Numbered from the stretch's first letter, positions 43,114-58,008 are shown. The stretch: 64,000 nucleotides of DNA from Caldisericota bacterium (GCA_024655865.1 JANLFM010000006.1:16183-80182), one strand, 5' to 3'. Program-made: numbers and translations. Notes: generated by a model from the letters alone, not told the origin.

Positions 43114-43124
43114 TATTGGGCTCC

Positions 43125-43487: not shown

Positions 43488-43552
43488 TCTCCATCCTCCG
43501 TATTTTTATTTTTTATCTTGTAAGTTTTGAGGGATCAGATCAAAGGTAAGGC

Positions 43553-44086: not shown

Positions 44087-44165
44087 TTAGCCAATATTTT
44101 ATCAAATATTTTACTCAGGATTACTTTATTTAAAATGCTTCCTGAATTCAAGGCAAATATTTTTC

Positions 44166-44726
44166 TTAATCTTGTTCAGGAAAGATCCTCTCCAGCTCCT
44201 TTACTTTCTCATTTATGAATTCTCTCAAAAACTTAATCACCGAGGGATGAGAAAGGGGCACATCATTTAAAATCGCTTTTATTTCTCGAGTGTCCAGAAC
44301 CAGTTCCCTTCCGTTTTTTAAATAGCGGAAAAGGATGTCCGCTCTTTCTGAAGCGTAAACCAGGGCCAGTATGGTCCCGCGCAAATCCCCCAGCGGGGGA
44401 AGGTCAATATGGCTGCGCGGAAATTGTGCTTTTATCCTCGTGCCTTTCCCGGCCTGGGATTTGACCTTTAAATCACCTCCGGTGGAGAGGGCCGTCTGCT
44501 TCAAAAGGGGAATTCCCAGGCCCACTTTCTTTCCGGACTTGGTGGTGAAAAAGGGATCTTCCACCATTTTCAGAGTCTCTTCATCCATACCCCGGCCGTT
44601 ATCTTCCACCGTGATCTCCAGAAGATCCTCCTTGATTCGTTCTCTGATCTCTACGGAGATCAAGCTGGCTCCTGCGCTAATCGAGTTCTGCACAATATCC
44701 AGAACGTGGAGAAGGAGTTCATCCAT
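44166..44726 (-). CDS. Stand-alone HATPase_c (histidine-kinase-like ATPase) protein
   Basis: N box (ITVEDNGRGMD) and G box (GLGIPL) with no HisKA or sensor domain. Part of the putative sensory [FeFe]-hydrogenase module. Confidence 0.6.
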   Translation of the reverse strand: MDELLLHVLDIVQNSISAGASLISVEIRERIKEDLLEITVEDNGRGMDEETLKMVEDPFFTTKSGKKVGLGIPLLKQTALSTGGDLKVKSQAGKGTRIKAQFPRSHIDLPPLGDLRGTILALVYASERADILFRYLKNGRELVLDTREIKAILNDVPLSHPSVIKFLREFINEKVKELERIFPEQD

Positions 44727-45510
44727 TTCCTAAGGGTTCCCTCCCGATTTCTAAGCGGATTATCCCTCTTCCCCCTTTCCCCTCCAGAGCGTACCTCAAT
44801 TCTTCAAGGGTGGGGCTTTCCATCTGGAGTACCGTTACCGCCCTGCCGATTTCCTCGGGATAGTGGGCATCGGAAAAGGATACCAGAGGATACCCCAAGA
44901 GGTCGCGCGCTGAGGGATTCTTTTTCAAAAAGGCGTGGGAGACCTCAAGGGCAGGAAAGTGCAGTTCAGGAGGGATAAATCCCAACTGCCCGGCAAGGCT
45001 GAAGTGAAAGGAGTCCACATGTGCGGGAATAACCAGTCCTCCCATTTTTGTAACAAGGCGCGAGAGGCCCTCCAAAGAAATCGCCACGGAGTTCAGAAGA
45101 AGCTTCTCCTCAAAATAGATCACGTTTTCCTCCTCGTCCACGGCCACCTGGTCTCCAAAGTGCTGAGGGTCGTTCTTCACCTGCGGGAGACGGTCGTAAA
45201 TTTCCTTTCCAAAAAGTTCAAAGGAGGAGGGGTCATCAAAATAAACGAGGAGGTGCGCCTCCTCCTGAGTTTGCACTTCTATTCCATAAAAGAAGGGCAG
45301 GCTCCTCTTCCGCGCCATTTTTCCCAGCGTTACGCTGTTTAAAGTTGCGTTGTGGTCTGTGATGGCCACTAAATTTATCCCCATTCCCACTACACTTTCC
45401 AGGATGCGCGAGGGGGACATTTTCAGGCTTCCGCAGGGGGAAAGCGTGGAGTGGATATGAAGGTCAGCGCGGAATTTTTCCACCTTGAAGCAACTGGAAA
45501 ATTTTTCCAC
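44719..45510 (-). CDS. PHP-domain phosphoesterase
   Basis: 'ADLHIHSTLSPCGS' matches the N-terminal PHP metal-binding motif. Confidence 0.7.
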   Translation of the reverse strand: MEKFSSCFKVEKFRADLHIHSTLSPCGSLKMSPSRILESVVGMGINLVAITDHNATLNSVTLGKMARKRSLPFFYGIEVQTQEEAHLLVYFDDPSSFELFGKEIYDRLPQVKNDPQHFGDQVAVDEEENVIYFEEKLLLNSVAISLEGLSRLVTKMGGLVIPAHVDSFHFSLAGQLGFIPPELHFPALEVSHAFLKKNPSARDLLGYPLVSFSDAHYPEEIGRAVTVLQMESPTLEELRYALEGKGGRGIIRLEIGREPLGNG

Positions 45511-45811
45511 TCAGGGTAAAGGCATCATCCGGACTTCCTAAAAGCCAGATCCCCTCTTCCTCAGCTTTCTTCATCACATCCTCTTCCGGAAGTAGCTCCT
45601 GAGCGATGATTATTGCGGGAATTTCCTTAAGCGCTGCTACGGCCACGATGTTCACGTGCCTTTGCACGGTAATCCACAGGGCCCCAGAAGGAGCGGAACC
45701 AATCACCAGGGAAAGGAGGTCCCCAGTATATCCCTTATCTATGGAAGCTTCTTTCCCGGTGGCATACACCTTTAAATTTAAATGGTCGATTATTTCTTTA
45801 ATACTCACCAT
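45464..45811 (-). CDS. DRTGG-domain protein
   Basis: 'YTGDLLS' lies in a roughly 110-aa stand-alone DRTGG-like fold. Confidence 0.55.
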   Translation of the reverse strand: MVSIKEIIDHLNLKVYATGKEASIDKGYTGDLLSLVIGSAPSGALWITVQRHVNIVAVAALKEIPAIIIAQELLPEEDVMKKAEEEGIWLLGSPDDAFTLSGKIFQLLQGGKIPR

Positions 45812-45863
45812 TTTCAGCTACACCTCGCTTCTAATTTAGCCCGGGGGCAAACTAACCCTTCTT

Positions 45864-47075
45864 TTAGAGGAAGATGCAGTCCTCAAGAGAAGCTTCGCCC
45901 TTGGCAACGTCCTCTGCCAGTGCCCTGCAAGTGGGAGCACCACATGACCCGCAGTCTATTTTGGGAAGTTTCTCGTAGAACTTATCAATCATCTTCAGGA
46001 GCTTGGCGGCGGCTTCCATATTTTCGGAGAGAAAGTACTGCGGTCTTGGTTGGATGGGCATAGTTAAATAGAGAAAATCCGCCATATCCTCCCTGGAAAG
46101 AGGGGAAATCGCATTTTCCCTCTTTCGCTCTTCCTGCTCCAGACGGTAAAGGTTCAAAAAGGAGTCCCTCTCAGGGAGGAGGATGCCCCCCACGCACCCA
46201 TTGGGACAGGAGCGGCCTTCAATCAGGTCAAGGGCGGGCACCTTTTCCATCTCGAGCTCTTTTAAAAATCTGACCACGTTGGTGATCCCGTCAATCGCCA
46301 GCACCCTTAAGGGAGAGAGGAATTCCTTTTCCCCGCCAATTCTGCCAATGGCTACCCCGCTCGGACCCGAAAGGTGTACTTTCCCCGAGGTAGTCTCATT
46401 GACCCTGAGGATTTCCCGATAGAGGATATTCGCTGCGATCACACCATCGTAAGGGGATTTCTCGATCCCCTGGGGGTTCCTGATGGCAGTAATTTTGGCG
46501 GGGCAGGGTGCAAGATAGAAAAGCCCCGAATTTTTTCCTAACTTACGCCTGACTGTGGCCCCCAAAATGTCCCTGGGAGTATTCAAGGGGGAAAGATGTG
46601 AGAGCAGATCAGGAAACCTGACCTGCATCAGCCTGATCACGGCCGGGCAGGCGACGGAAATCAAAGGTTTCTTCACATTCCCCTTTGTCAGGATGCGGCG
46701 CGTTTCCTCTAAATAGGCTTCCTCGCCTATCCCCTCCTCGTAGACCTCCTGGAACCCCAGGGCAAAGATTCGGCCCATTACTTCGGATGTGCTTAATCCC
46801 AGGAAATCCAGGGAGAGAAAGGCGGGAGGAATCACCAGCACTCTGTATTCGTAGTGAGAGAGAACCGAAAGGTCATCGGTTAAAACCTCGTTCGCTCCCC
46901 AGGGGCAGAAGCGCACGCAATCGCCGCAATCAATGCACTTTAAATCCTTGATTTGAGCTAAACGGTTTCTCACCCTGATGGCCTCTGTGGGACAATTGCG
47001 CAGGCAATGGGTACAGCCCTTGCACACGTCCTCCTTTATGCGCAGTGAATGGAAATAAAGGTTAAACGCTGGCAT
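45864..47075 (-). CDS. [FeFe]-hydrogenase-like protein, putative sensory HydS-type (2x[4Fe-4S] + H-domain)
   Basis: N-terminus has CKGCTHCLRNCP and CIDCGDCVRFCP. The H-cluster motifs are variant. L1 is 'SVACPAV', where the first Cys of TSCCP is replaced by Ala. L2 is 'APCPAK' (PCxxK). L3 is 'EGRSCPNGCVGG'. An extra C-terminal CGSCGAPTC motif is present. Confidence 0.75.
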   Translation of the reverse strand: MPAFNLYFHSLRIKEDVCKGCTHCLRNCPTEAIRVRNRLAQIKDLKCIDCGDCVRFCPWGANEVLTDDLSVLSHYEYRVLVIPPAFLSLDFLGLSTSEVMGRIFALGFQEVYEEGIGEEAYLEETRRILTKGNVKKPLISVACPAVIRLMQVRFPDLLSHLSPLNTPRDILGATVRRKLGKNSGLFYLAPCPAKITAIRNPQGIEKSPYDGVIAANILYREILRVNETTSGKVHLSGPSGVAIGRIGGEKEFLSPLRVLAIDGITNVVRFLKELEMEKVPALDLIEGRSCPNGCVGGILLPERDSFLNLYRLEQEERKRENAISPLSREDMADFLYLTMPIQPRPQYFLSENMEAAAKLLKMIDKFYEKLPKIDCGSCGAPTCRALAEDVAKGEASLEDCIFL

Positions 47076-47502
47076 TGGGAATATCTATTTCAAAAATCAC
47101 TTTCGTGCCCTTTCCGGGGTGGCTCTCAATAAGCAATCGGTCGGCATTTTTCTTGATATTGGGTAAGCCCATCCCTGATCCAAAACCCATTTCCCGAATC
47201 TCCGGAGGAGCAGTGGAGTATCCCTCCTTCATGGCTAACTCCACGTCCTCGATCCCTGGTCCGCGGTCCGTGGCGGTAACCCTGATCATTTTCGGATAGA
47301 CTTCAAGTAAGAGCTCTCCTTTTTCCGTATACACGATGATGTTCATTTCCGCTTCGTATGAGGCGATGGCTGTCCTTTTTATAACCTGGGGATTGATCCC
47401 CATGCGCTTTAAAGCCTCCTTTATGTCTGAAGAAGCCTCACCCCCGTGCTCAAAGTCTCGCCCCTGAATCTGGTATGTGTGGCTGTAAAGCAGGTCGTTC
47501 AA
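47062..47502 (-). CDS. RsbW-like HATPase_c serine kinase / anti-sigma-type ATPase
   Basis: 146 aa with N box (ATDRGPGIED) and G box (GFGSGMGL). Confidence 0.65.
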   Translation of the reverse strand: MNDLLYSHTYQIQGRDFEHGGEASSDIKEALKRMGINPQVIKRTAIASYEAEMNIIVYTEKGELLLEVYPKMIRVTATDRGPGIEDVELAMKEGYSTAPPEIREMGFGSGMGLPNIKKNADRLLIESHPGKGTKVIFEIDIPNASV

Positions 47503-47870
47503 GGTCCCCTGGTTATTCGGGCCCCTTCGATTCCAGCTTTATAGAGCAGCCCGCAGGTAACGAAAACGATGAGCTCCGTGGATACTACGATTACTCCTTT
47601 TTCCTCACCCAGGGTTATCGTTTCCCAGGGGACGCGTTTCCCTCGGGCCACGATTACCATGGGAATGTCCATGAGCACTGCTGTGCGCACAATTTGAGGG
47701 TTAGTTATTCCTGTTATCAGGACCACGTCCCTGTTCTCTACTTCCACCAGGGCCAGTACGTCGCTTAATAAGTCAGCGGCGAATCCCCTTTTAATTTCCA
47801 CTTCATCCAGCAGGGATTCTCCGGATAGGACTTTGCCCTTAATTAAGCTCACAATTTCTCGCGCTCTCAT
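47499..47870 (-). CDS. DRTGG-domain protein (second copy)
   Basis: Paralog of 45464..45811 (..VVLITGITN..). Confidence 0.55.
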   Translation of the reverse strand: MRAREIVSLIKGKVLSGESLLDEVEIKRGFAADLLSDVLALVEVENRDVVLITGITNPQIVRTAVLMDIPMVIVARGKRVPWETITLGEEKGVIVVSTELIVFVTCGLLYKAGIEGARITRGP

Positions 47871-47887
47871 CTTCCCTATTCTACACC

Positions 47888-48611
47888 AAAAATAGGGACA
47901 GTCCCTATTTTTTTCTGGGCCTTCCCCTCAGCTTCGGAAGCGCCTCCTGGCCGAGCCTTTTTATAATTTCCTCCGCCCACCCTCTGCTTCCGAAAGGGAC
48001 CTGCCTGTTGGCACAGGCTCTCAATTTTTCCAGCTCTCCGGGGCTTACTGCTTCCATGACATAGGTGCCCCAGTCTCGGGGAAGAGGGACCGGGCTGGCA
48101 TCAAGAAGGGGGATCTTCACGTTTCCCCCTTCCCTTTCCCGGAAAGAAGACCACTTCCACTCGCCAGGAAGAGAGGCCAATCCCGCCCTCAAGGGATTGG
48201 CCTCCACATAGCGCATAACCATGAGAAAATGCTCGTCCTCCTGAACGAGAAAGCATCGGAAGCGGTCCTGCCAGATGTGGCCGCTCGTCCCATGCTCCTT
48301 GTGATAGCGGCGAACATGGCTGGTGCAAAGCCAGTGCATTCCCCGGCTCAGGTCTTTACCCTCTGGAGAAGAGAGGACCAGATGAAAGTGGTTGGGCATC
48401 AGGCAATAAGAAAAAATTGACCAGAAATACTTTTCCTTCGTTTCCTTAAGCAGCTGGAGGAAGGAGAGATAGTCCTTTTCCTTGTAGAAAACGGTCTGCC
48501 TGCCATTCCCCCGGTTGAGCACGTGGTAAATTGCTCCCCCGATGACATTTCGAGCTGTCCGTGGCATCCTCAGTTTCCTCCTTCAAAAATAGGGACAGTC
48601 CCTATTTTTTT
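47888..48611. mobile_element. REP-RAYT-REP unit: IS200-like REP-associated tyrosine transposase flanked by palindromic REP hairpins
   Basis: The palindrome AAAAATAGGGACAGTCCCTATTTTT occurs at 47888..47914 and 48585..48611 in the same orientation. Each is followed by TCTGGGCC. Confidence 0.7.
47905..48567 (-). CDS. REP-associated tyrosine transposase (RAYT, IS200/IS605 TnpA-like)
   Basis: HUH motif (MPNHFHLV). 'YHVLNRG' near the N-terminus. A downstream catalytic-Tyr region (RYVEANPLRAGL). The TAG stop lies inside REP-A. Confidence 0.8.
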   Translation of the reverse strand: MPRTARNVIGGAIYHVLNRGNGRQTVFYKEKDYLSFLQLLKETKEKYFWSIFSYCLMPNHFHLVLSSPEGKDLSRGMHWLCTSHVRRYHKEHGTSGHIWQDRFRCFLVQEDEHFLMVMRYVEANPLRAGLASLPGEWKWSSFREREGGNVKIPLLDASPVPLPRDWGTYVMEAVSPGELEKLRACANRQVPFGSRGWAEEIIKRLGQEALPKLRGRPRKK

Positions 48612-48650
48612 CTGGGCCCGGCGATCCGCTTCCAGAACCTCTTCCAGAGC
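48585..48650. repeat. REP hairpin plus 39-bp copy of the dxr 3' tail (direct repeat of 52750..52815)
   Basis: About 66 bp with roughly four mismatches to the copy at the true dxr 3' end. The repeat includes GATCCGCTTCCAGAACCTCTTCCAGAG. Confidence 0.8.
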
Positions 48651-48844
48651 TACCCTTCTAATAAATCCAGCGCCCCAGCAGCCAAAGTCTCTGAATCTCT
48701 GGAAATCTCTGAGAAGAATTATAGCAAAACTGGGGCCGCATCCCTTGGGAGCATGAATCCTTTGACGAACAAGCCTTTAATCGCTTTCACCCATTCTTTA
48801 AATTTCGGCAAAAAATCAAAAAACTGAAAATCTGAAAATCGACA

Positions 48845-48882
48845 GGCTGCAAATAAGGAGGGGCGCGCCCTGCGCCCCTCCC
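48845..48882 (-). terminator. GC-rich hairpin terminator downstream of the nucleotidase gene
   Basis: GGAGGGGCGC-gccct-GCGCCCCTCC. On the minus strand it is followed by UUAUUUG. Confidence 0.5.
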
Positions 48883-48910
48883 AAAAAAATGGGGACAGTC
48901 CCCAGTTTAT
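48883..48910. repeat. Degenerate REP-like palindrome (AAAAAAATGGGGACAGTCCCCA)
   Basis: Variant of the REP core at the 3' end of the nucleotidase gene. Confidence 0.45.
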
Positions 48911-51900
48911 GGGGCTATCGTAATCCGGCCCTCAATGGCTGCCGTGATGGGGGTATTGGCGGGAGGAGTCCCGAACTTCCAGAGGATATAATCGATGAAC
49001 GCTGTGAGATCGCGAATGGCGGTGCGCTGGACGTTAGTCCCCTGGAGGAAGACCGTAAATTTGTCTCCGCCTGTGGCGATGAATTCATTACACACCACAC
49101 TGTACTTAGTTGCTGGATCGATAGGCGTCCCGTCCTCCAGGGTCAGGGAGACAATCCTTGATCCCGGAGGGTTGGTTGGCCTGTAAGAGTACTTGATTCC
49201 GGAGATCTGAAGCGTCCTCGTGGCAGTCTGCGTGGGCGGCCACTGCTGCTCGAGAAGGGCGGCAATCTGGGCCCCCGTGAGCTCCATAGTCACAAGCTCG
49301 TTATCGAAGGGCTGGATGGTATAGAGGTCTCCCCAGGTCACATCCTTGGGATAGGAAGTGCCCACAAGGTCCGCGCGGATTCCGCCCGGGTTCATGAAGG
49401 CAATCTGGGTCCCCGTTTTCCACCTCTGGGAATCAGCGATCAGGTTGCCCAGAGCGGACTCCCCAGCGGTATTCTGAGTTCGTGTGATGGGGCCGGTTAT
49501 AGTCCCCAGTACCTGGTTGACGATGGGGGCAATAGCGTCCTTGTAGTACTGGACTAAGGCCGCGATTTCGGGATCAGGTGTGATGCCTGCATTATATGTG
49601 GTGATCACGGAGAGGTCATAGGAGAAGAGCTTGTTGTTCAGGCGGTCCACCCGGAGTTTAGCTACTCCTAAAGCGGTCCCGGAGGAGTAAGCCTGGGTGA
49701 TGGGTATGGAGTTCGCCGTCCCGGCGATATTGGTGTGGGAGTGTCCGGAAACGATGTAATCCACACCCGTGAGGTTCTGGGCCAGGGTTGCTACTTCACC
49801 CGTGATCACCTTGGTCGTGGTATCCTGCGTTCCTCCCATGTGCGCCAGGACGATAATCACGTTCACACCAGAGGCTCGCAATTGCTGCGCTAACTGGTTA
49901 ATTATCGGCGCCGGATCCCTGAATTCCAGTCCCGCAAGGTTTCCCGCCATGACGATTGAGGGGGTCTCCAGCGTGGTGGCTCCGATCAATCCGATCTTCA
50001 GGCCCTTGGCCTGGATAATCGTGTAGGGCTTAATCCAGGAAGGTCGATCATTGGTACCAGCCGTGAAGATGTTGCAGGATAAACGGGGGAAATCAGCCTG
50101 GGCAACGCGCTCCTGGAGCACTGCCTGCCCCCAGTCGAACTCATGGTTACCGAATGCGGAAGCCTGATATCCCATGTGATTGAAGACGTCGATCACGGAT
50201 TCACCCTTGACCAGATTGGAGATGGGCGTTCCCTGCATGGTGTCCCCGGCGTCCACAAGGATTGTTCCTAAGGGATTCTGAGCGCGATAGTTTTTGATAT
50301 ACGTCATATTGTACGCAGCGCCGCCAGCCCACTGCCCGGATACTGTCTTGGGCTCAAGCTGTCCGTGGAAGTCGTTGGTGGAAAGGACGGTTAAAGAGGG
50401 ATACCTGGTCTCAGAGATCCACTGGAGTGCGGTCCAGTTGGTCAGGGCGGCTTTAGGATTAAGAGAGGACTGTCCGTAGAAAAGTCCTATCTGTATACTG
50501 TAAGTGTAAGCCGAGGCGGACCAAGGGGAAATGCTCTTATAGTCGCCAAAATCGTCCAGAAGCGTCCAGTCAACTGAAGGAGAAACAATACCGCTCATCG
50601 CCTGGTTCACGAGGAAAACCTGCGCACGCTCGGCATCAAAGGCCGTAGGCAGGTCTCGGGACAGAAGCAGGTATCTTTTGCCTGTTTTCTTATCAAGAAC
50701 AGTCACATTGGACGGCCCGCCTTTAAGACTTAAATTGGCATTAACAAAAAGATCGTTTGCGCTATAAGAGAACTTTAAAACGCTTGAGGTAGCAAATATC
50801 CTGGAAGCAGAACGGACGCCGTAGGTTTTCTCCCCCGCAAAGAACTGAAACTTCTTGTTCGATACATCCACCACAATCGCCGTTTTTCTTGAGGGATCCG
50901 CAAAAAGGTACGTCTTTTCGCTGGGCTCACCAAAAGCCAACCCCAGAAGCGCAAGATAAGAATCCTTTGTTATCACCTCATTGGGGCGGAGGAAGTTATC
51001 CGGGTAAAGACTCCAGTTCTTGATGAAGATAGCATTGGGGTCAAGCGGTGAATGAGCCTCTACCCATTGCACAATCAGATCCCTGACTTCCGTTGTGGAG
51101 CTGTAGAGTACGGTGGCGCCTCTGGGTACGAACTGCCCCGTGGCACGGTAGTTGTTCACCGCTACCCTGATCTTCTGGCTCATAGAGATGGGCACGCCGT
51201 TTAATTTCAAATCGAAGATCCTCTGGCCAGGCGGCTTTGTGATGTCAATCTTATATTGAATCCCGGACCACATGTCGTAGTTGTAATCCCTAACAGCAGG
51301 ATTCTTGGTAACCCCCGTGGGGCTGAAATCGTAGGTATTGAAGTACTGAGCCGTCCACTCCAAGACGTCTTTGACAATTTGACCCGTGGCCTCAACCACG
51401 TAAAGAGTGTTGTCGTAAATATAAAGACCGTAAATGTCCTTTAGTCTGATGGGGCCTTGTGCTAATTGTGCCGCATCAGTGAACAGAGCAGCGCAGGAAG
51501 CATCAACGGGATAACCGGCGGCTGCAGCCGCTTCAGTTTGTACCAGGTTAATCAGATCAGCCGTGGGACCATCCTGAATGCGAGCGGGGAATCCACCGGG
51601 GAAGGGCCCAAGAGCCTCTCCCACCGGGGTGTTCACGTAAGTCCTTGTGGCATCATGATAGGGTTGCATGGTAGCAAGGAAGCCGGAATCCTCCGCCACG
51701 GCATCCATGGATTGAACAACTCCGGACTTGGAGGAGACCGTCCAATCGGAGCCCGATCCGGTGAGATTCAGCGTGACATCGCAGACGTCCCTTCCGGCGT
51801 TGCGCGGGGCTACGATTAATACTCCATTAACCGTGGTATTCACCACCACGTGAGCGTGTCCCGCGAGGATAACATCCACTCCAGAAACGTTATTGGCCAG

Positions 51901-52668
51901 ATCAAGGATGAAGTTCTCCTCGTGTCCATAGCCGTAGGTGACATCGGTTCCCGAATGGGCGGCGATCACAATCACATCTGCTCCAGCCGCTCTCATCTGG
52001 GGGACATAAGTATTTGCTTCCGCAACCGGATCGGTGAAGCTCAGCCCGGCGATGTTTTCCGGTTTCTCCCAGTGTGGGATGGCCTGGTTGGTCAGTCCTA
52101 AAATTCCCACCTGCACTCCTCCGATATCCTTGATTGTGTAGGGAGTGTAGGCCGGGGTATTGTCCGCTGTTTTCCTCACGTTGGCCGCAAGAACGGGGAA
52201 GCTGGCCTCAGAGATGAACTTTCCCAAGACAGTCTGGCCGAAGTTGAACTCGTGATTGCCCAGGGTCATGGCATCGTAGCCGATGTAGTTCATAGCTACC
52301 GCCATGGGATTGGGATCTGTGGGACGAAGGACGTTATAAAGGTAGTTTACCGGAGTCCCCTGAATGGTGTCTCCGTTGTCAATCACAAGGGTATAAGGGT
52401 TGGCGGCCCTTACCTGGTTAACGTAGGTACAAATTTTTGCCATCCCTCGCTTGGAGCTCGTGATGGCGGTGTCGGAAAAGTAATCCCAGTTCTGAATCTG
52501 ACCGTGGATGTCGGATGTCCCGATCAACCTCAGGGTCCTGGATTCAGCTGCACTTGCAGGACCAACGGTGAAGGTGAAAGAAAAGAAAAGGACGAAAGCG
52601 AGAAGAAAACTGAGAAACCTAACCCCTTTTGACTCTCTCAATCTCAATTGACATACCCCCCTCTGCAA
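48907..52668 (-). CDS. Secreted tandem (2x) UshA-like 5'-nucleotidase / 2',3'-cyclic-nucleotide phosphodiesterase (1253 aa)
   Basis: Signal peptide. Two full calcineurin-like metallophosphatase modules plus 5'-nucleotidase C-terminal modules. First module: GTSDIHG..NGDTIQGTP..GNHEFN. Second module: STNDFHG..AGDTMQGTP..GNHEFD. Confidence 0.8.
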   Translation of the reverse strand: MQRGVCQLRLRESKGVRFLSFLLAFVLFFSFTFTVGPASAAESRTLRLIGTSDIHGQIQNWDYFSDTAITSSKRGMAKICTYVNQVRAANPYTLVIDNGDTIQGTPVNYLYNVLRPTDPNPMAVAMNYIGYDAMTLGNHEFNFGQTVLGKFISEASFPVLAANVRKTADNTPAYTPYTIKDIGGVQVGILGLTNQAIPHWEKPENIAGLSFTDPVAEANTYVPQMRAAGADVIVIAAHSGTDVTYGYGHEENFILDLANNVSGVDVILAGHAHVVVNTTVNGVLIVAPRNAGRDVCDVTLNLTGSGSDWTVSSKSGVVQSMDAVAEDSGFLATMQPYHDATRTYVNTPVGEALGPFPGGFPARIQDGPTADLINLVQTEAAAAAGYPVDASCAALFTDAAQLAQGPIRLKDIYGLYIYDNTLYVVEATGQIVKDVLEWTAQYFNTYDFSPTGVTKNPAVRDYNYDMWSGIQYKIDITKPPGQRIFDLKLNGVPISMSQKIRVAVNNYRATGQFVPRGATVLYSSTTEVRDLIVQWVEAHSPLDPNAIFIKNWSLYPDNFLRPNEVITKDSYLALLGLAFGEPSEKTYLFADPSRKTAIVVDVSNKKFQFFAGEKTYGVRSASRIFATSSVLKFSYSANDLFVNANLSLKGGPSNVTVLDKKTGKRYLLLSRDLPTAFDAERAQVFLVNQAMSGIVSPSVDWTLLDDFGDYKSISPWSASAYTYSIQIGLFYGQSSLNPKAALTNWTALQWISETRYPSLTVLSTNDFHGQLEPKTVSGQWAGGAAYNMTYIKNYRAQNPLGTILVDAGDTMQGTPISNLVKGESVIDVFNHMGYQASAFGNHEFDWGQAVLQERVAQADFPRLSCNIFTAGTNDRPSWIKPYTIIQAKGLKIGLIGATTLETPSIVMAGNLAGLEFRDPAPIINQLAQQLRASGVNVIIVLAHMGGTQDTTTKVITGEVATLAQNLTGVDYIVSGHSHTNIAGTANSIPITQAYSSGTALGVAKLRVDRLNNKLFSYDLSVITTYNAGITPDPEIAALVQYYKDAIAPIVNQVLGTITGPITRTQNTAGESALGNLIADSQRWKTGTQIAFMNPGGIRADLVGTSYPKDVTWGDLYTIQPFDNELVTMELTGAQIAALLEQQWPPTQTATRTLQISGIKYSYRPTNPPGSRIVSLTLEDGTPIDPATKYSVVCNEFIATGGDKFTVFLQGTNVQRTAIRDLTAFIDYILWKFGTPPANTPITAAIEGRITIAP

Positions 52669-52744
52669 AATTCGGTTTTCAAGTTTTTCAAGCTTTTTCT
52701 CAAAAACCAGGATATTTTTAGTTTAAAACCACCAAAAGAAAAGT

Positions 52745-53911
52745 TCAATAAAAAATAGGGACTGTCCCTATTTTTTTTCGGGCCCAGCGATCCGCTTCCA
52801 GAACCTCTTCCAGAGTCTCCCCCGAAAGGGGCACGTGGCAGGACAGCACTTCCTCCACTACTTGAACGATTCTGGTAAACGAAATCCTTCCCCCAAGGAA
52901 GGCCTCAACCGCTACCTCATCCGCGGCAGAGAGCACGGTGGGTGCGGTGCCTCCCATCTCGAGGGCCAGATATGCAAGCCTCAGAGCCGGGAAGCGCTCC
53001 AGGTCAGCCCTTTGGAACTCTAACTTCCCCACCTCCGCCAGATCCAGTGTACGGACGAGGGAGGGAAGCCTCTCCGGATAAAGGAGGGCATACTGAATGG
53101 GAAGCCTCATATCAGGGACCGAGAGCTGGGCCAGCATAGCCCCGTCCTTGAACCGAACCAAGGAATGAACCACGCTCTGGGGATGAATTAGGACCTCGAT
53201 CTTCTCCGGAGGCAGTCCAAACAAATAGTGGGCCTCGATCACCTCCAATCCTTTATTCATCAAAGTGGCAGAATCTACCGTGATCTTTTTCCCCATCTTC
53301 CAGACAGGGTGAGCCAGGGCCTCCTCCACCGTCACCCTTTCAAGCTCGGCCGGGTTCCGGCGCCAGAATGGTCCCCCGCTGGCGGTGAGGACGATCTTGT
53401 CCACAGCCTCCATCGACTCCCCTTGCAGGCACTGGAAAATCGCCGAGTGCTCGGAGTCCACAGGGATCAAGCGCCCTCCCCCTTCTTTGATTGCCCTCTC
53501 TACCAGCTTCCCCCCGGCAACCAGCGCCTCCTTCGTAGCCAGAGCTACGGTCTTCCCTCTTCTCAAAGCCTCCAGAGTGGGTGCCAGGCCCGCGATCCCC
53601 ACAACCGCCACGAGCACAAGATCCACATCCTCCCTCGTTACGAGCTCCACGAGCCCCTCCTCCCCCAGATAGAGGCCGGTTCCGGGGGGAAGGAATGAGC
53701 CGAGAAGGTTCGCTCTCGAAGGATCGGTGGAGGCCGGGTGGGTAAGTGCCACAGCTTTTGGATGATGCCGCAACACGATCTTTCCCAGCTCTTCCACGGA
53801 GCGGGAAGCAGAAACCCCTACGAGCTCCAGGCGCTCGGGGAAGCGCTCCACGACCTCAAGAGCCTGTCTGCCAATGGAACCTGTGGCGCCTAAAATTGAA
53901 ATGCGCTTCAT
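52745..53911 (-). CDS. dxr: 1-deoxy-D-xylulose 5-phosphate reductoisomerase
   Basis: N-terminal 'ISILGATGSIGRQALEV' NADPH motif and overall Dxr architecture. The last 12 codons (..KKIGTVPIFY*) are encoded by the REP element. Confidence 0.9.
   Translation of the reverse strand: MKRISILGATGSIGRQALEVVERFPERLELVGVSASRSVEELGKIVLRHHPKAVALTHPASTDPSRANLLGSFLPPGTGLYLGEEGLVELVTREDVDLVLVAVVGIAGLAPTLEALRRGKTVALATKEALVAGGKLVERAIKEGGGRLIPVDSEHSAIFQCLQGESMEAVDKIVLTASGGPFWRRNPAELERVTVEEALAHPVWKMGKKITVDSATLMNKGLEVIEAHYLFGLPPEKIEVLIHPQSVVHSLVRFKDGAMLAQLSVPDMRLPIQYALLYPERLPSLVRTLDLAEVGKLEFQRADLERFPALRLAYLALEMGGTAPTVLSAADEVAVEAFLGGRISFTRIVQVVEEVLSCHVPLSGETLEEVLEADRWARKKIGTVPIFY
52750..52815. repeat. REP hairpin embedded in the dxr 3' end (partner of 48585..48650)
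   Basis: AAAAAATAGGGACTGTCCCTATTTTTTTT followed by CGGGCCCAGCGATCCGCTTCCAGAACCTCTTCCAGAG. The dxr reading frame passes through the hairpin. Confidence 0.8.
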
Positions 53912-54390
53912 ACACAGGATTATAACTTTATTATTAATAAAAAGGGCGGTCCCTACTGCACTTTTTCACATGCGCCCGGACAATAGGATTAATTTCCACT
54001 TTCATGTGAGCAGTCGCAGTGGCAGTGGTCCTTTTAAATTAAATGCTTCTTTTATACCTCTTCGAAGACTTTAGTGTTCCCTATCCATCCTTAAAACAGG
54101 GTGCTGGCTTAACCGCTCCAGGACCGTTTACCGGAAGCCCGAACTAATTCTCAACCCTATTCCGTTACACTGCTTTTTAATCCTTGAAGTCTTAAGATCC
54201 TTCAACTACAGAAATTTTCAAAAATAATTTGCTACTTCGCTGGAAATGCCTATAATAAATGCCTATAATTCCGTTAAAAGCACGTTCAGAATCGGAGGGC
54301 AAAGAAAGCAAAAAGAAAGAAGGGGGGTTTGTAGTAAAAAATAATTTTAAATTTAAGCTAAAAGCCTTTTAAGGAAAGGAGGTTCGAATT

Positions 54391-57300
54391 TTGAAGAGAT
54401 CAAAAGTTATTTCGCTTGTAGCCATTGTCTTTCTCCTTGTCTTTTTCACCACCAGTATTGGCATGGCTACCCCCTTGGTTACCCCTGGCCGCACCATTCC
54501 CGAATCCTGGAAGGTGTCTCCGCAGAAAATCGTGGAAAATCACCTTGCTCAAGCAAGCAAGGTGGATTCCTCTCTATCCAAATCCAGTCCGGTTTTCCAG
54601 AAGTCGCTTCCCGAGGAGGGTATACAGGCGCCTGTGCCTGATGATGGCGTGGCCAAAGGAAATTTCCGGGTGGAAGAGGACGGAAAAATCACGGCCATTA
54701 TTGGTCTGAAGGAAGCGCCCGTGGCCGCAGTTCAGGACAAGAACCTGATCAGCAGGAACCTTCTCAAAGTAAAAAGTGAGCAGATCATGGCCGAGGACGT
54801 CCTGGCCTCCATCGGGGATGTCGAGGTTAAGGAGAAGCTTCAGTACGCTTACAACGGCCTGGTCGTTCGCTTCCCCAAAGAGAAGCTTTCGGAAATCCAA
54901 AAGCGCTTCGGCGCGGAGAACATTCACCCCTCCAAGACCTATTACCTGGACATGGCCTACAGCACCGTGCTCACAGGAGCCACGACTGTCTGGTCTAACC
55001 TCGGTTACGACGGTACGGGAGTGGTGGTAGGCGTTGTGGACACCGGTGTGGACTACAATCACCCTGATTTAGGTGGAGGATTCGGCAACAAGGTAATCGC
55101 TATGATTGACACCGGAGACGACGACAACGACGCTATGGATTCAAACGGTCACGGCACGCACGTTGCTGGCACAATGGCGGCAAAGGCCGCAGCACCGGGT
55201 GGAGTCACAGGCATGGCTCCGGAAGCGAAAATCATTGCAGCCAAGATCGTAAAAGGCGGGGAGGGCTCTGCTTCGAACGCTGACATCGCTGCTGCCTTCG
55301 ACTGGATGCTCCAGAAGAAGTTGGAGGGTGTAAATCTGGTCTCCATCAATATGTCCTTCGGCTTCCCCGGTGGCTGGAACAACCCCACTGATCCCGAGCA
55401 GGTGGCGATCCAGAACTGCGTGGATAACGGGATTTTTGTCTCCCTCTCCGCAGGAAACGAGTACTGGTCGGTTTATCCCTATAACCAGGTTTACTACTAC
55501 GGGGAAAATTACCCTAGGACCACCTGGTACCCCGCCGACATCAGCACTGTCGGCTCTCCTGCTACTACACCTGGTGCAGCTTCAGTCGCCGCTTCCTGGA
55601 ACACGAATTCTATGTATCCCAGCTTCCTCGAAGTAACGGGGTCAAGGCGCATTCCTTATGTCGTAGGAAGCCCCTCCCCTGACCCTGTAAATGTCTTTGG
55701 CACATCCAGCCAATTGGAGTATGTTTACTGCGGCCTCGGCGGAACACCAGCGGATTTCCCCTCTTCAGTAGCAGGAAAGATCGCCCTGATTGAGAGAGGA
55801 GTGTACACATTCCTGACAAAGGTTCAAAATGCTCAGGCTGCTGGCGCTATCGGTGTGATTGTTTATAACAGCGCTGCCGGTGGGGAAGCTTTCGTCACCA
55901 TGGCGCTGGATGCGAGCGTCACCATTCCTGCGGTCTTTATCCGCAGAAGTGACGGCTTGTATCTTCAGGGTCTTACCAGCCCACCGGCAAAGGTGCAGTT
56001 TGACGGTCAGGTGACCGCGGTAGCCAACCCCACTGCCGACAAGATGGTGGACTTCTCCTCCTGGGGTACTGACCCCAATTTGAACTTTAAACCCGAGATC
56101 GCGGCTCCCGGTGGCGGAATCTGGTCCACAGTGCCTCTGGCCATGGGCGGGTACGCCAACTACTCCGGAACATCCATGTCCTCCCCTCATGTGGGCGGCG
56201 CTGCTGCTTTGATCATGCAGGCTCATCCCGACTGGACGCCCGCTCAGGTTAAGGCTGCCTTAATGAACACGGCTACGCTCCTCACAGATCCTACAACCGG
56301 CCTTCCCTACAGCCCCAGGCTCCAGGGCGCCGGCCGTATCAACGTCTATGACGCTCTCCTCACTCCGGTTTTCGTCGCCGACAACACCACGAATTACCCC
56401 GCTGAGCCCCTGGGAGACACAGATTCTGCTACCTCGAAGAGCTTCACTTTAAAGCTCACCAATACCGCAACTTATGACATCACTTACAATCTCAGCGCCA
56501 CCATCCAGAGGTATAGTACCACCCGCGTTCCTTACGCTCTTACTGGGGGAAGCGTTACCTTCCCGGGAGGCACTTCTGTGACAGTTCCCGCTGGGGGCAC
56601 AGCCCTGGTGGATGTAATAGTTAGCGTGGCGGGAAACATTACCTACGAGAACATCTTTGTGGACGGGTTCGTGAACTTCACCCCTCAAGGGGCGACGGTT
56701 CCCGAGCTCCACGTTCCCTACACCCTCTTCTGGGGTGACTGGCAGGATACCAGATACACGGAAGACTGGGCGCATAACCCGGTAATCGATCCTCCTCCCG
56801 ATGATCCCACAGGCTGGTGGTGGTGGGGCTACACCTGGCTCTACACTCAGATGGGCACCTCCTACTACTACCTCGGTTACACATTCAGCGGCGACCTCGA
56901 CCGCAACGCCATCGCTATCTCTCCCAATGGGGACGGGATCTGGGATAACCTCTATCCCCTAATTTCCTTAATGAGGGGCACTCCCGAGACCTATGTTCAC
57001 AAGAACTTCAACCGCTATCCCTACTGGGATTCCTGGGACAACTGGTGGCTCTGGGCTCCTGCGCCAGGGGCGATCCCTGATGGCAACTACTTCCTGAGAT
57101 TTAAGGCTGAGATTCCGGGAACCCTCACCCAGCATTCCGGAATTTACCAGACGGTTGACCTGCCCTTCATCGTGGATACGGCGGTACCCCAGGTGAACGT
57201 CTCTACCAGCATTTCAAAGGTCCCCTCCGGTTCTTACGACTTCACCATTAACTGGACTGCCTCCGACGACAGGAGCGGCCTCTGGGGGTTCGACCTCTAC

Positions 57301-57945
57301 TTAGATGGGGAATACTACGACTCTGTAGGGCCGGATGTCACGAGCTACACCTTCACCGGCCTTCCCGACGCTCCCCATTCCTTTATGGTTGTGGCCTGGG
57401 ATAACGCCCAGAACTACGCCTTCTCTGCTTACCTCTACAACGCCTTCACCTTCAATATGAGCGCGGGCTGGAACTTCTTCTCCTTCCCGGTTCAGACCAA
57501 CCCCGATCCCAGTAAAGTACTTCCTTCAACTCCTGCGCCATTCACTCTTAAATGGTTCAACGACGCTACCCAGAAGTGGGTAACAAAGAACATCACCTTC
57601 ACCCTGGGAGACGCCTACTGGCTGATGCTCAAAAAGGCCACTTCATTCACCTTCTCCGGCGTACTGAACGGCCAGCCCTCCTTCTCTATCGCTCTCTATA
57701 CGGGCAGAAACGATATCGGTGTACCCTATCCGGCGAACTTCAGCTGGACGGACGTGAAAGTGCAGAAGGGCAACACCGTGCTCACCCTCAAGGACGCTTT
57801 AAAGGCCAAGTGGATCAGAAATGTCTTCTACTGGGATCGCGGCGTGTACCGCAGTGCCCTGAATAAGGATTTGATCCCCGGCAACGGTTACATTATTTAC
57901 GCCAACACCCCGCTGACTCTGATCTTCCCGAATCCCCTCTATTGA
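54391..57945 (+). CDS. Secreted S8 subtilisin-like serine protease with PA domain and long C-terminal extension (1184 aa)
   Basis: TTG start after a GGAGG RBS. Signal peptide. Catalytic triad motifs: VGVVDTGVDYNHPDL (Asp), HGTHVAGT (His) and GTSMSSPHVGG (Ser). Confidence 0.9.
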   Translation: MKRSKVISLVAIVFLLVFFTTSIGMATPLVTPGRTIPESWKVSPQKIVENHLAQASKVDSSLSKSSPVFQKSLPEEGIQAPVPDDGVAKGNFRVEEDGKITAIIGLKEAPVAAVQDKNLISRNLLKVKSEQIMAEDVLASIGDVEVKEKLQYAYNGLVVRFPKEKLSEIQKRFGAENIHPSKTYYLDMAYSTVLTGATTVWSNLGYDGTGVVVGVVDTGVDYNHPDLGGGFGNKVIAMIDTGDDDNDAMDSNGHGTHVAGTMAAKAAAPGGVTGMAPEAKIIAAKIVKGGEGSASNADIAAAFDWMLQKKLEGVNLVSINMSFGFPGGWNNPTDPEQVAIQNCVDNGIFVSLSAGNEYWSVYPYNQVYYYGENYPRTTWYPADISTVGSPATTPGAASVAASWNTNSMYPSFLEVTGSRRIPYVVGSPSPDPVNVFGTSSQLEYVYCGLGGTPADFPSSVAGKIALIERGVYTFLTKVQNAQAAGAIGVIVYNSAAGGEAFVTMALDASVTIPAVFIRRSDGLYLQGLTSPPAKVQFDGQVTAVANPTADKMVDFSSWGTDPNLNFKPEIAAPGGGIWSTVPLAMGGYANYSGTSMSSPHVGGAAALIMQAHPDWTPAQVKAALMNTATLLTDPTTGLPYSPRLQGAGRINVYDALLTPVFVADNTTNYPAEPLGDTDSATSKSFTLKLTNTATYDITYNLSATIQRYSTTRVPYALTGGSVTFPGGTSVTVPAGGTALVDVIVSVAGNITYENIFVDGFVNFTPQGATVPELHVPYTLFWGDWQDTRYTEDWAHNPVIDPPPDDPTGWWWWGYTWLYTQMGTSYYYLGYTFSGDLDRNAIAISPNGDGIWDNLYPLISLMRGTPETYVHKNFNRYPYWDSWDNWWLWAPAPGAIPDGNYFLRFKAEIPGTLTQHSGIYQTVDLPFIVDTAVPQVNVSTSISKVPSGSYDFTINWTASDDRSGLWGFDLYLDGEYYDSVGPDVTSYTFTGLPDAPHSFMVVAWDNAQNYAFSAYLYNAFTFNMSAGWNFFSFPVQTNPDPSKVLPSTPAPFTLKWFNDATQKWVTKNITFTLGDAYWLMLKKATSFTFSGVLNGQPSFSIALYTGRNDIGVPYPANFSWTDVKVQKGNTVLTLKDALKAKWIRNVFYWDRGVYRSALNKDLIPGNGYIIYANTPLTLIFPNPLY

Positions 57946-57967
57946 GCGAAAAAGGTATTTGAATCTT

Positions 57968-58008
57968 CGAGCGGCTGGCTTGGGCCCAAGCCAGCCGCTC
58001 GTCTTTTG
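57968..58008 (+). terminator. Rho-independent terminator of the subtilase gene
   Basis: Perfect 17-bp inverted repeat CGAGCGGCTGGCTTGGG/CCCAAGCCAGCCGCTCG followed by TCTTTTGG. Confidence 0.7.

What the first reader, a model, noticed from the sequence alone, without database searches (positions are those of the whole stretch)
48585..52815. 66-bp direct repeat (REP + dxr 3' tail) flanking a 4.1-kb segment that carries only the tandem-UshA nucleotidase gene
Two copies of 'REP + GGGCCCrGCGATCCGCTTCCAGAACCTCTTCCAGAG' are about 94% identical and share orientation. They bracket the nucleotidase gene. One copy is the real 3' end of dxr. The other sits beside the RAYT. This pattern fits REP-mediated insertion or duplication that brought the nucleotidase in. 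It could equally reflect RAYT-driven copying of the dxr terminus.
Basis: seen in the sequence. Interest (0 to 1): 0.65.

Follow-up and report, generated by a model that had tools for sequence, protein, structure and literature searches.

The report
Leftover dxr tail marks gene reshuffling
The 66-base repeat is real: one copy is the working end of the essential gene dxr, and the other is a dead leftover of that same end, showing that the nucleotidase gene was moved in between dxr and a domesticated transposase gene by a rearrangement at small palindromic repeats.

Summary
Positions 48585-48649 and 52751-52815 match at 61 of 65 bases. The 36-nt dxr-derived part occurs nowhere else in the window.

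All genes lie on the minus strand, in this order:
- dxr, whose last 9 codons are a REP palindrome
- an 82-nt leader
- a tandem 5'-nucleotidase, followed by a REP and a GC hairpin
- a 207-nt spacer
- the dxr-tail relic with its REP
- a RAYT (REP-associated tyrosine transposase, Y1 HUH type) with a REP
- DRTGG

Related Caldiserica-like metagenome contigs settle the direction of change. In five other haplotype groups, dxr-REP-RAYT is contiguous. There the nucleotidase is upstream of dxr, downstream of RAYT, or absent. So the RAYT-side copy is a relic of the ancestral dxr-REP-RAYT junction.

The nucleotidase was not imported from afar. It is a resident, REP-bounded neighbour that was relocated. 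One junction lies exactly at a REP. The other is an illegitimate join 38 nt inside the dxr 3' end.

The most likely cause is REP-anchored duplication followed by loss. RAYT catalysis is possible but has no specific support.

This is an ordinary kind of event, unusually well documented. The locus is hypervariable within one species-level population. The same 21-nt palindrome occurs in contigs of 39-72% GC.

The parts
52751..52815 (-). Repeat copy A: the functional 3' end of dxr (codons for ..LEEVLEADRWARKKIGTVPIF) including REP_a (palindrome about 52750-52778)
   Evidence: The tail is identical through GGGCCCG to the dxr of L084, which lacks both RAYT and nucleotidase, so it is native dxr sequence.
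48585..48649 (-). Repeat copy B: a dead relic of a dxr 3' end (tail', 48612-48649) plus REP_c (48585-48611), directly upstream of RAYT
   Evidence: It carries Trp->Arg (TGG->CGG) and is not in any conserved ORF. The same relic is in L083. The block tail'-REP_c-linker-RAYT 5' is 96-98% identical to L088, where dxr is intact at that place.
52745..53911 (-). dxr (1-deoxy-D-xylulose-5-phosphate reductoisomerase), 388 aa
   Evidence: (three Dxr Pfam domains)
52669..52750 (-). Leader 'X' of the nucleotidase gene. In all arrangements it is always preceded by a REP.
   Evidence: alignment A1
48907..52668 (-). Tandem (two-module) secreted 5'-nucleotidase / 2',3'-cyclic phosphodiesterase family protein, 1253 aa
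   Evidence: The middle part (about 50050-51550) is mosaic relative to L083.
48883..48908 (-). REP_b (variant TGGGGACAGTCCCCA), abutting the nucleotidase stop codon
   Evidence: It is at the same place in L083, L217 and L219.
48857..48881 (-). GC-rich hairpin (terminator-like) that travels with the nucleotidase gene
   Evidence: -20 kcal/mol together with REP_b. It is conserved after the nucleotidase gene in L217, L219 and L083, and in weaker form in L093.
48650..48856 (-). Spacer of unknown origin between the hairpin and the relic. Its end (..GGGTAG|CTCTGG..) is the one junction that is not at a REP.
   Evidence: Matches only L083 (94%) among all fetched loci and the window itself.
47905..48567 (-). 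RAYT (REP-associated tyrosine transposase, Y1 HUH), 220 aa. The gene is mosaic, with a recombination breakpoint near 48420.
47888..47914 (-). REP_d, overlapping the RAYT stop codon and followed by the DRTGG gene leader
53936..53956 (-). Decayed REP (GTAGGGACCGCCCTTTTTATT) just upstream of a TATAAT box and the dxr start. L088 has an intact REP at the corresponding place.
   Evidence: read by eye, not statistically tested
54215..54390 (-). Subtilase-proximal intergenic DNA, 97% identical to L219. The homology stops exactly where L219 has the REP that precedes its nucleotidase gene.

Best explanation
The RAYT-side copy (48585-48649) is a non-functional relic of the ancestral junction 'dxr 3' end - REP - RAYT'. 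In this lineage a resident module (REP - leader - nucleotidase - REP - GC hairpin) was relocated from elsewhere in the same REP-dense neighbourhood to between dxr and RAYT, by a duplicative rearrangement.

One junction was made by exchange between two REPs. The REP that ends dxr was fused with the REP that precedes the nucleotidase leader, giving dxr-REP_a-leader-nucleotidase. The other junction (spacer|CTCTGG) is an illegitimate join or deletion end-point 38 nt inside the 3' end of a second dxr copy.

Because dxr is presumably essential, only products that kept one complete dxr survive. What remains is a complete dxr plus a 38-nt stump of the other copy with its REP. This is a tandem-duplication / loss-of-redundant-copies type of path. 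A one-step equivalent is a replication template switch at the REP hairpin, or homology-anchored illegitimate recombination between two haplotypes.

Shown here: the relic status, the derived position of the nucleotidase, and the REP-edge breakpoints. Inferred: the order and enzymology of the steps. The repeat itself does nothing today. At most its 29-nt perfect block could allow rare deletion of the nucleotidase segment.
For: (1) dxr-REP-RAYT-REP-DRTGG is contiguous in L219, L217/218 and L221. These contigs have right-hand core identity to the window of 97%, 78% and 75%, so this adjacency is ancestral.
(2) The relic, REP_c, the 20-nt linker and the first ~150 nt of RAYT match L088 and L220, where an intact dxr occupies the relic's place.
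(3) The tail is native dxr coding sequence: it is identical in L084, which has neither RAYT nor nucleotidase.
(4) REP-leader-nucleotidase-REP-hairpin is a conserved module found in three different positions: T1 in L219/L217, T2 in the window/L083/L216, and T3 in L088/L115.
(5) Breakpoints coincide with REP edges. L216 and L220 are 99.5% identical over 9.26 kb and diverge exactly after the T-run of the dxr REP, into leader-nucleotidase and linker-RAYT respectively. Window/L219 homology ends exactly at the A-run of L219's REP0.
(6) The same kind of scar recurs. In L219 a 103-nt REP+flank direct repeat brackets the SLH gene, and a RAYT fragment lies between two REP+flank copies.
(7) The relic shows relaxed constraint (Trp->Arg; an ORF through it is not conserved between the window and L083).
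(8) The arrangement and the relic are shared by L083 (about 96% nt identity, different sample), so this is an inherited structure.
Against: No intermediate was found, that is, no haplotype with two dxr copies or a longer dxr fragment. Contigs of the L088, L216 and L220 types all end inside or before the nucleotidase gene. The 207-nt spacer matches nothing in T1 or T3 relatives, so the sequence that once lay next to the illegitimate junction is unknown. REP x REP homologous exchange and RAYT-catalysed strand transfer at REPs predict the same breakpoints, so the enzymology is not resolved. The REP identity block is only about 25-35 nt, marginal for RecA-dependent exchange (my own knowledge). Dxr alleles are so divergent within one species-level group that part of the history is inter-haplotype recombination. 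The direction of individual steps therefore remains uncertain.
Confidence: 0.6

Rival explanations
1. RAYT-catalysed single-strand cut-and-paste or copy. The Y1 HUH enzyme cleaves at or near REP hairpins and transfers strands, moving REP-bounded gene modules such as the nucleotidase cassette. Cleavage at a distant site in the dxr tail produced the 38-nt carry-over.
For: The RAYT gene is intact, has the HUH motif and catalytic Tyr, and sits in the middle of the shuffled modules. Every module ends in the cognate hairpin. All but one junction are at REP edges. E. coli TnpAREP cleaves at CT dinucleotides that can lie on either side of, and far from, the hairpin, and it can transfer strands (PMC3479197). 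The relic begins with CT.
Against: There is no direct evidence of activity. CT is too frequent to carry weight. The RAYT family is regarded as domesticated, single-copy, and acting on REP doublets rather than on 4-kb gene cassettes (PMC5581495). Homologous exchange between REPs explains the same breakpoints. The relic is easily explained as a stump of a deleted gene copy.
Confidence: 0.15
2. Campbell-type or site-specific integration. A circular DNA carrying the nucleotidase gene plus a copy of the dxr tail + REP recombined with the chromosomal dxr tail, so that the 66-nt repeats are attL/attR-like and the segment is an excisable islet.
For: Direct repeats made of the 3' end of a target gene flanking an inserted segment are the classic signature of integrative elements (established knowledge). 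The gene is restored by the repeat. Strains that are 99.5% identical differ by what follows the dxr REP. A 29-nt perfect block remains in the repeat.
Against: There is no tyrosine or serine recombinase in or beside the segment. The cargo is not foreign: the same module lies a few kb away in relatives. The left junction is shared with T3, where the leader follows a different gene's REP. The right boundary is arbitrary, with no inverted repeats and no conserved core.
Confidence: 0.12
3. Artefact or coincidence. Either the repeat reflects a chimeric metagenome assembly across REP copies, or independent REP insertions happen to have similar flanks.
For: The source is a metagenome contig, and REPs are repeated sequences at which assemblers can mis-join.
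Against: The same arrangement with the relic was assembled independently from another sample (L083). It is also in the NCBI MAG version of the contig (P0001 and P0121 on an 89-kb contig). The 36-nt tail part is dxr coding sequence, with zero chance expectation. REPs of about 30 nt are shorter than the final assembly k-mers (contig names show k141), which is my inference.
Confidence: 0.03

Closest known systems
REP / RAYT systems (E. coli TnpAREP with REP/BIME; Pseudomonas REPIN-RAYT)
   Same: The gene encodes a Y1 HUH protein that passes the NCBIfam RAYT model, and its only solved relative is TnpAREP 4ER8. It is flanked by copies of a short palindrome that also occurs elsewhere, often as inverted doublets in other genomes. 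It sits at a fixed chromosomal position across diverged relatives (PMC3116915, PMC5581495, PMC3479197).
   Different: REP density is low and clustered: 4-5 copies within 6 kb of the RAYT in 64 kb. Two REPs overlap coding 3' ends, and one is translated as the last 7-9 residues of Dxr. The palindrome is a perfect AT-flanked stem rather than an imperfect GC-rich hairpin. The same 21-nt sequence is shared by contigs of 39-72% GC, whereas classical REPs are lineage-specific (my own knowledge). The host belongs to an uncultured Caldiserica-like lineage.
REP-mediated chromosomal duplications and rearrangements in enterobacteria (REP at duplication join-points; my own knowledge of Shyamala et al. 1990, not retrieved here)
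   Same: Short palindromic repeats serve as the exchange points of unequal recombination, and junctions fall at REP copies.
   Different: Here the event is fossilised rather than observed in the laboratory. It is followed by loss of redundant copies, so gene order changed. One junction is non-REP and left a gene stump.
Tandem duplication - random loss model of gene-order change (animal mitochondrial genomes; established knowledge)
   Same: Gene order is permuted among the same set of neighbours on one strand, with a pseudogene stump left at the boundary of a retained gene.
   Different: This is a bacterial chromosome. The losses are probably guided by REP x REP deletion, and no duplicated intermediates have been observed.
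Genomic islets integrated at the 3' end of a gene with att direct repeats
   Same: The flanking direct repeat contains the 3' end of the target gene, and the gene stays intact.
   Different: There is no integrase and no foreign cargo. One repeat boundary is a REP edge shared with other arrangements.
Homology-facilitated illegitimate recombination during natural transformation (Acinetobacter, pneumococcus; my own knowledge)
   Same: A homologous anchor on one side (dxr) plus an illegitimate join on the other would give exactly such a partial duplication when two haplotypes recombine. The RAYT gene itself shows an inter-haplotype crossover.
   Different: Competence is unknown in this organism, and a donor haplotype has not been demonstrated beyond L216-like contigs.

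Membership tests
RAYT (REP-associated tyrosine transposase) | [quoted passage not shown] | tested here: met
   Pfam Y1_Tnp E=2e-17. In the alignment to E. coli TnpAREP 4ER8, HFH aligns with HMH and RYVEANP with DYIYINP.
RAYT (REP-associated tyrosine transposase) | Scores as RAYT rather than as an IS200 transposase | tested here: met
   NF047646 REP_Tyr_transpos scores 82.5 bits (cut-off 80; a narrow pass). NF033573 transpos_IS200 scores 19.3 bits (cut-off 55).
RAYT (REP-associated tyrosine transposase) | Gene flanked by its cognate REP sequences | tested here: met
   REP_c lies 17 nt upstream of the start and REP_d overlaps the stop. The same is seen in L083, L088, L217, L219 and L221. In L217 and L219 the two differ in the central base (A vs T), which means inverted orientation.
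RAYT (REP-associated tyrosine transposase) | Single copy per genome, vertically inherited at a stable locus | tested here: inconclusive
   There is one copy in the 64-kb window. The position dxr-RAYT-DRTGG is kept in contigs whose core identity to the window is 75-98%. No complete genome was available. L084 lacks the gene, and L219 carries an extra RAYT fragment.
REP (repetitive extragenic palindrome) | Short palindrome able to form a hairpin | tested here: met
   11-12 bp stem with a 3-nt loop, -9 to -10 kcal/mol as ssDNA, z-score -2.3 to -3.2.
REP (repetitive extragenic palindrome) | Many dispersed copies in the genome, often as inverted doublets (REPINs) | tested here: inconclusive
   In this lineage copies cluster near the RAYT: 4-5 in the window and 6 in L219. 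One further copy lies elsewhere on the L219 contig (L130). Other ~50% GC contigs carry 1-3 copies. Doublets are common in high-GC contigs. Genome-wide copy number is not measurable here.
REP (repetitive extragenic palindrome) | Extragenic location | tested here: not met
   REP_a encodes the last 9 residues of Dxr, and REP_d contains the RAYT stop codon. The Dxr C-terminus K(K)[IM]GTVPIF is kept in Dxr proteins down to 69% identity, and nearly so (KKLGTVPTF) in a further relative, P0015.
Integrative island with att repeats | Tyrosine or serine recombinase (integrase) in or next to the segment | tested here: not met
   Between the repeats there is only the nucleotidase gene. The neighbours are dxr, RAYT and DRTGG.
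Integrative island with att repeats | Cargo foreign to the locus, with an empty site in relatives | tested here: not met
   Empty dxr-RAYT sites exist, but the same nucleotidase module lies within a few kb in L219, L217 and L088.
Transposon insertion with target-site duplication | Short fixed-length duplication, terminal inverted repeats, transposase inside the element | tested here: not met
   The duplication is 65-67 nt. The ends of the 4.1-kb segment are not inverted repeats. There is no transposase inside the segment.
IS200/IS605 insertion sequence | Multi-copy element, TnpA matching the IS200 model, distinct left and right end hairpins | tested here: not met
   The IS200 HMM score is far below its cut-off. 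The exact protein was found on one contig only. The gene sits at a conserved locus.
Tandem duplication - loss footprint | Pseudogene stump of a duplicated gene at the boundary of a retained neighbour | tested here: met
   A 38-nt dxr stump sits in front of REP_c-RAYT, co-linear with intact dxr-REP-RAYT in L088 and L220.
Tandem duplication - loss footprint | Intermediates with both copies present | not testable with these tools

The most novel reading that the evidence does not exclude
The REP/RAYT pair works here as a gene-cassette shuffler. Each gene in the cluster (nucleotidase, SLH protein, dxr, RAYT) ends in the cognate hairpin. The RAYT would excise and re-insert hairpin-bounded gene modules as single strands, in the manner of an integron but with an HUH enzyme. 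This would create the different gene orders (T1, T2, T3, T4) seen within one species-level population. The REP+flank duplications (the dxr tail here, and the 103-nt repeat around SLH in L219) would be its footprints. The near-identical 21-nt hairpin across contigs of 39-72% GC would then mark a widespread, conserved machinery with a host-level role in diversifying surface and secreted-protein loci.
Probability: 0.1. Interest if true: 0.8.

Novelty: new member of a known kind. Interest (0 to 1): 0.4.

Why it matters
On its own the repeat is a rearrangement scar with no present function.

Its value is as a dated, readable record. It shows that in an uncultured Caldiserica-like lineage, gene order around an essential gene is reshuffled at REP palindromes next to the RAYT gene. 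At least three arrangements coexist among contigs that are 95-98% identical in the adjacent core.

This gives a natural before/after series for an open question: whether RAYT/REP systems do anything for the host beyond propagating REPs. The contrast between L216 and L220, which are 99.5% identical, is especially clean.

Two side observations would interest REP specialists more than the repeat itself:
- A REP is translated as the conserved C-terminal peptide of Dxr.
- An identical 21-nt palindrome is shared across contigs of very different GC content.

Tried and rejected
1. The scan of one genome per species (GTDB) with Dxr found no close relative. The best hit was 54% identity, so it was useless for synteny.
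2. Rfam at gathering thresholds and a tRNA/tmRNA scan of the whole window found nothing, so the segment is not tRNA-associated and the spacer is not a known RNA.
3. I looked for a distant donor locus through the closest nucleotidase homologues (L093 at 86% aa, L094 at 68%). Homology is confined to the coding region and the terminator hairpin, and the contexts are unrelated. I dropped this line once L088/L115, L217 and L219 showed the gene is a local resident.
4. I searched for the origin of the 207-nt spacer and of the ~300 nt upstream of dxr by sensitive blastn against all 220 loci and the window. Only L083 matched.
5. Using Dxr identity as a proxy for relatedness was rejected. The right-hand core shows that L219 (Dxr 69%) and L084 are the same species-level group as the window.
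6. I considered an ORF running through the relic: 88 aa on the plus strand in the JGI calls, and 74 aa on the gene strand in L083. It is not conserved between the window and L083 and has no family hit.
7. The GTAG|CT motif at the illegitimate junction resembles the E. coli REP guide and cleavage motifs. I give it no weight: this is a different RAYT/REP family and the motif is short.
8. A full-text search for the palindrome string returned only unrelated eukaryotic primer hits.
9. The promoter/terminator scan was not enriched over shuffles. Only REP_b was called terminator-like.

Full report
**1. Observation**

The repeat exists as described. Positions 48585-48649 and 52751-52815 align without gaps at 61 of 65 positions. 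It has two parts.

The first part is a nearly perfect palindrome, AAAAATAGGGAC(A/T)GTCCCTATTTTT. It occurs four times in the window, all between 47.9 and 52.8 kb, against 1.9 expected.

The second part is 36-38 nt of dxr coding sequence. It occurs only at these two places even with three mismatches allowed, against 0 in shuffles.

All genes in the region are on the minus strand:
- dxr: 52745-53911, three Dxr domains
- a 1253-aa protein with two Metallophos + 5_nucleotid_C modules: 48907-52668
- a 220-aa Y1_Tnp protein: 47905-48567
- a DRTGG protein: 47499-47870

The Dxr domain ends at residue 379. The last nine residues (KIGTVPIFY) are encoded by the palindrome itself.

**2. Anatomy in gene orientation (minus strand, 5'->3')**

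| Element | Coordinates |
|---|---|
| dxr tail | 52815->52780 |
| REP_a | 52778->52750 |
| leader X | 52750->52669 |
| nucleotidase | 52668->48907 |
| REP_b, variant core | 48908->48883 |
| GC hairpin | 48881->48857 |
| spacer, 207 nt | 48856->48650 |
| relic tail' | 48649->48612 |
| REP_c | 48611->48585 |
| linker, 17 nt | 48584->48568 |
| RAYT | 48567->47905 |
| REP_d | 47914->47888 |
| DRTGG | from 47870 |

The REP hairpins fold with an 11-12 bp stem at -9 to -10 kcal/mol as single-stranded DNA. The relic differs from the working tail by TGG->CGG (Trp->Arg) and by CCCGAAAAAAAA->CCCAGAAAAAAA. No ORF through it is conserved.

**3. Identity of the transposase-like gene**

- It passes the NCBIfam equivalog model for REP-associated tyrosine transposase, narrowly (82.5 bits, cut-off 80).
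- It fails the IS200 model (19.3 bits, cut-off 55).
- Its only solved relative is E. coli TnpAREP (4ER8). The HUH motif and the catalytic tyrosine are aligned.

The background for these families comes from PMC3116915, PMC5581495 and PMC3479197.

**4. Source and relatives**

The window comes from a JGI metagenome contig (3300038743, Ga0417229_000213). NCBI names the identical protein as from a Caldiserica bacterium MAG.

The one-genome-per-species collection has no close relative; the best Dxr match is 54%. Metagenome proteins gave a graded series of Dxr relatives, and I fetched their contigs.

| Type | Contigs | Gene order |
|---|---|---|
| T1 | L219; L217/218 (partial) | subtilase(-) \| REP \| nucleotidase REP hairpin \| SLH \| dxr REP \| RAYT REP \| DRTGG |
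| T2 | window, L083; L216 (left part) | subtilase(-) \| dxr REP \| X nucleotidase REP hairpin spacer relic REP \| RAYT REP \| DRTGG |
| T3 | L088-L092, L115 (six independent assemblies) | subtilase(-) \| REP \| dxr REP \| RAYT REP \| SLH REP \| X nucleotidase ... |
| T4 | L084-L086 | dxr, decayed palindrome \| DRTGG; no RAYT, no nucleotidase |
| - | L221 (Caldiserica MAG GCA_024655965.1) | subtilase(-) \| dxr REP \| RAYT \| DRTGG |
| - | L220 | dxr REP \| RAYT |

**5. What the comparison shows**

(a) The adjacency dxr-REP-RAYT-REP-DRTGG is ancestral. It is present in contigs whose conserved right-hand region is 97%, 78% and 75% identical to the window (L219, L217 and L221). The nucleotidase between dxr and RAYT is therefore the derived state.

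(b) The tail is native dxr sequence. L084, which has neither RAYT nor nucleotidase, has exactly the same tail through GGGCCCG.

(c) The relic is co-linear with an intact dxr elsewhere. The relic, REP_c, the linker and the first ~150 nt of RAYT are 96-98% identical to L088 and 93% identical to L220. In both of those contigs a complete dxr sits where the relic is.

(d) The nucleotidase is not an import. Its leader X, always preceded by a REP, and its trailing REP and GC hairpin are conserved wherever the gene sits (alignment A1).

(e) Breakpoints coincide with REP edges.
- L216 and L220 are 99.5% identical over 9.26 kb. They diverge immediately after the T-run of the dxr REP, into X-nucleotidase and linker-RAYT respectively.
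- The window's subtilase-side intergenic DNA is 97% identical to L219 up to the first base of L219's upstream REP.
- A decayed REP remains in front of the window's dxr promoter.

(f) The only junction not at a REP is spacer|relic (..GGGTAG|CTCTGG..). It is identical in the window and L083.

**6. Mechanism**

One class of event explains every feature: a duplicative rearrangement anchored at REPs, followed by loss of the redundant copies.

Starting from T1, the path would be:
- Unequal exchange between the REP upstream of the nucleotidase and the REP at the end of dxr duplicates [X-nucleotidase-SLH-dxr]. This directly creates the junction dxr-REP-X-nucleotidase.
- Deletion of the second SLH and most of the second dxr leaves the 38-nt stump in front of REP-RAYT.
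- Deletion of the first nucleotidase-SLH copy leaves the decayed REP upstream of dxr.

Starting from T3, an equivalent path has the same single illegitimate junction. A single template switch at the hairpin during replication would give the same product. So would homology-anchored illegitimate recombination between an L216-like and an L220-like haplotype.

I cannot choose among these paths. Selection explains why a duplicated tail is seen: dxr is the committed MEP-pathway enzyme (established knowledge), so only products that retain a full copy persist.

I put 0.6 on this recombination/duplication-loss class. The rivals get the following:
- 0.15 on RAYT-catalysed strand transfer. This is plausible because E. 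coli TnpAREP can cleave at CT sites distant from the hairpin and can transfer strands (PMC3479197). Nothing here demands it.
- 0.12 on Campbell-type or site-specific integration. There is no integrase and the cargo is not foreign.
- 0.03 on artefact. The structure was assembled independently twice.

**7. Wider context found on the way**

*A conservation boundary at the locus.* To the right of about 48420 (inside RAYT), the window is 98-100% identical to L219. The right-hand core is 95.6-98.1% identical to L083, L219 and L084. To the left, the same contigs carry dxr alleles only ~71-75% identical in nucleotides (L219) and different gene orders. One species-level population therefore holds several deeply diverged haplotypes of a region encoding secreted or surface proteins (subtilases, SLH proteins, nucleotidase), with dxr embedded in it.

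*The REP inside dxr is old.* Dxr proteins down to 69% identity end in K(K)[IM]GTVPIF, which is the palindrome translated; one further relative (P0015) ends in KKLGTVPTF. More distant ones do not.

*REP+flank duplications recur.* In L219 a 103-nt repeat (81%) brackets the SLH gene. A RAYT fragment also sits between two REP+GGT(GT)AGAAT copies.

- Most are from contigs of 60-72% GC, and some are at 39-55% GC.
- It often occurs as doublets whose central bases are A then T, that is, inverted and REPIN-like.
- In several cases it lies next to RAYT homologues of only 32-36% identity.
- I found no paper containing this sequence.

**8. Verdict**

It is wrong in implying imported cargo or a functional repeat.

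The repeat is a fossil stump of dxr left by a REP-anchored local rearrangement. That is a known kind of event. Its interest lies mainly in the unusually clear comparative series and in the side observations about this REP/RAYT family.

Noticed in passing
The contigs range from 39 to 72% GC, so many unrelated lineages carry it. It is frequently in doublets 30-60 nt apart whose central bases are A then T (inverted, REPIN-like). Classical REPs are lineage-specific, so a hairpin this conserved across such different genomes is unexpected. No paper in the library contains the string.
   Followed up: partly
L140 9351-10086; L176 155-787; L192 6101-7745; L159 10774-11538: In high-GC contigs the same palindrome lies next to RAYT homologues only 32-36% identical to the window's protein. 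In L159 two copies lie 744 nt apart and bracket an ORF starting MPR.., the same architecture as here. The DNA hairpin is far better conserved than the protein.
   Followed up: partly
window 52745-52778 (dxr codons 380-388); proteins P0001-P0015: The REP palindrome is translated as the C-terminus of Dxr. The peptide K(K)[IM]GTVPIF is kept in Dxr relatives down to 69% identity (KKLGTVPTF in P0015) and is absent from more distant ones. In T1/T3-type contigs the dxr stop lies 0-17 nt from the RAYT start. This suggests that RAYT expression may be coupled to this essential gene.
   Followed up: partly
window 47885-48649, breakpoint near 48420: The RAYT gene is mosaic. The first ~150 nt, with the linker, REP_c and the relic, are 96-98% identical to L088 but ~75% to L219. 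The remaining 530 nt are 98-100% identical to L219 but 50-65% to L088. This indicates an inter-haplotype crossover inside the gene.
   Followed up: yes
window 38000-47877 versus 52750-58000; loci L083, L084, L219: There is a sharp conservation boundary at the dxr/RAYT locus. The [FeFe]-hydrogenase-like/DRTGG cluster to the right is 95.6-98.1% identical among the window, L083, L084 and L219. To the left, dxr, the nucleotidase and the subtilase are 70-90% identical or unalignable, and gene order differs (T1, T2, T4). This is a hypervariable surface/secreted-protein region within one species-level group.
   Followed up: partly
window about 50050-51550 (inside the nucleotidase gene): The linker and middle part between the two nucleotidase modules is only 16-80% identical to L083, with many gaps. 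The rest of the gene is 92-99% identical, and the L083 protein is 1120 aa against 1253 aa here. This looks like a replaced or rapidly evolving central segment.
   Followed up: no
L219 8423-8525 and 9336-9438; L219 11921-12276: A 103-nt direct repeat (81%), made of a REP plus the GC hairpin and its downstream flank, brackets the SLH gene. A RAYT fragment (aa 135-219, 56% identity) lies between two copies of REP+GGT(GT)AGAAT. These are the same kind of 'REP + flank' scar as the finding, at two other places.
   Followed up: partly
L084 8270-8409 (corresponds to window 52779...47877): A haplotype 98% identical to the window in the core lacks both RAYT and nucleotidase. Its dxr ends in a decayed palindrome (AAAATAGGGACCATCTCCAGTTTTTAA; protein ..RWARFEARKKIGTISSF), and it has 46 nt not present in the window. 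It is unclear whether this is an old RAYT loss or a separate allele.
   Followed up: partly
window 53936-53956: A decayed REP-like sequence (GTAGGGACCGCCCTTTTTATT) lies immediately upstream of a TATAAT box and the dxr start codon. L088 has an intact REP at the equivalent position.
   Followed up: no
window 48561-48827 (+): JGI called an 88-aa gene on the opposite strand across the RAYT start, REP_c, the relic and the spacer. It has no family hit. In L083 a different 74-aa ORF was called on the gene strand instead. It is probably spurious.
   Followed up: partly
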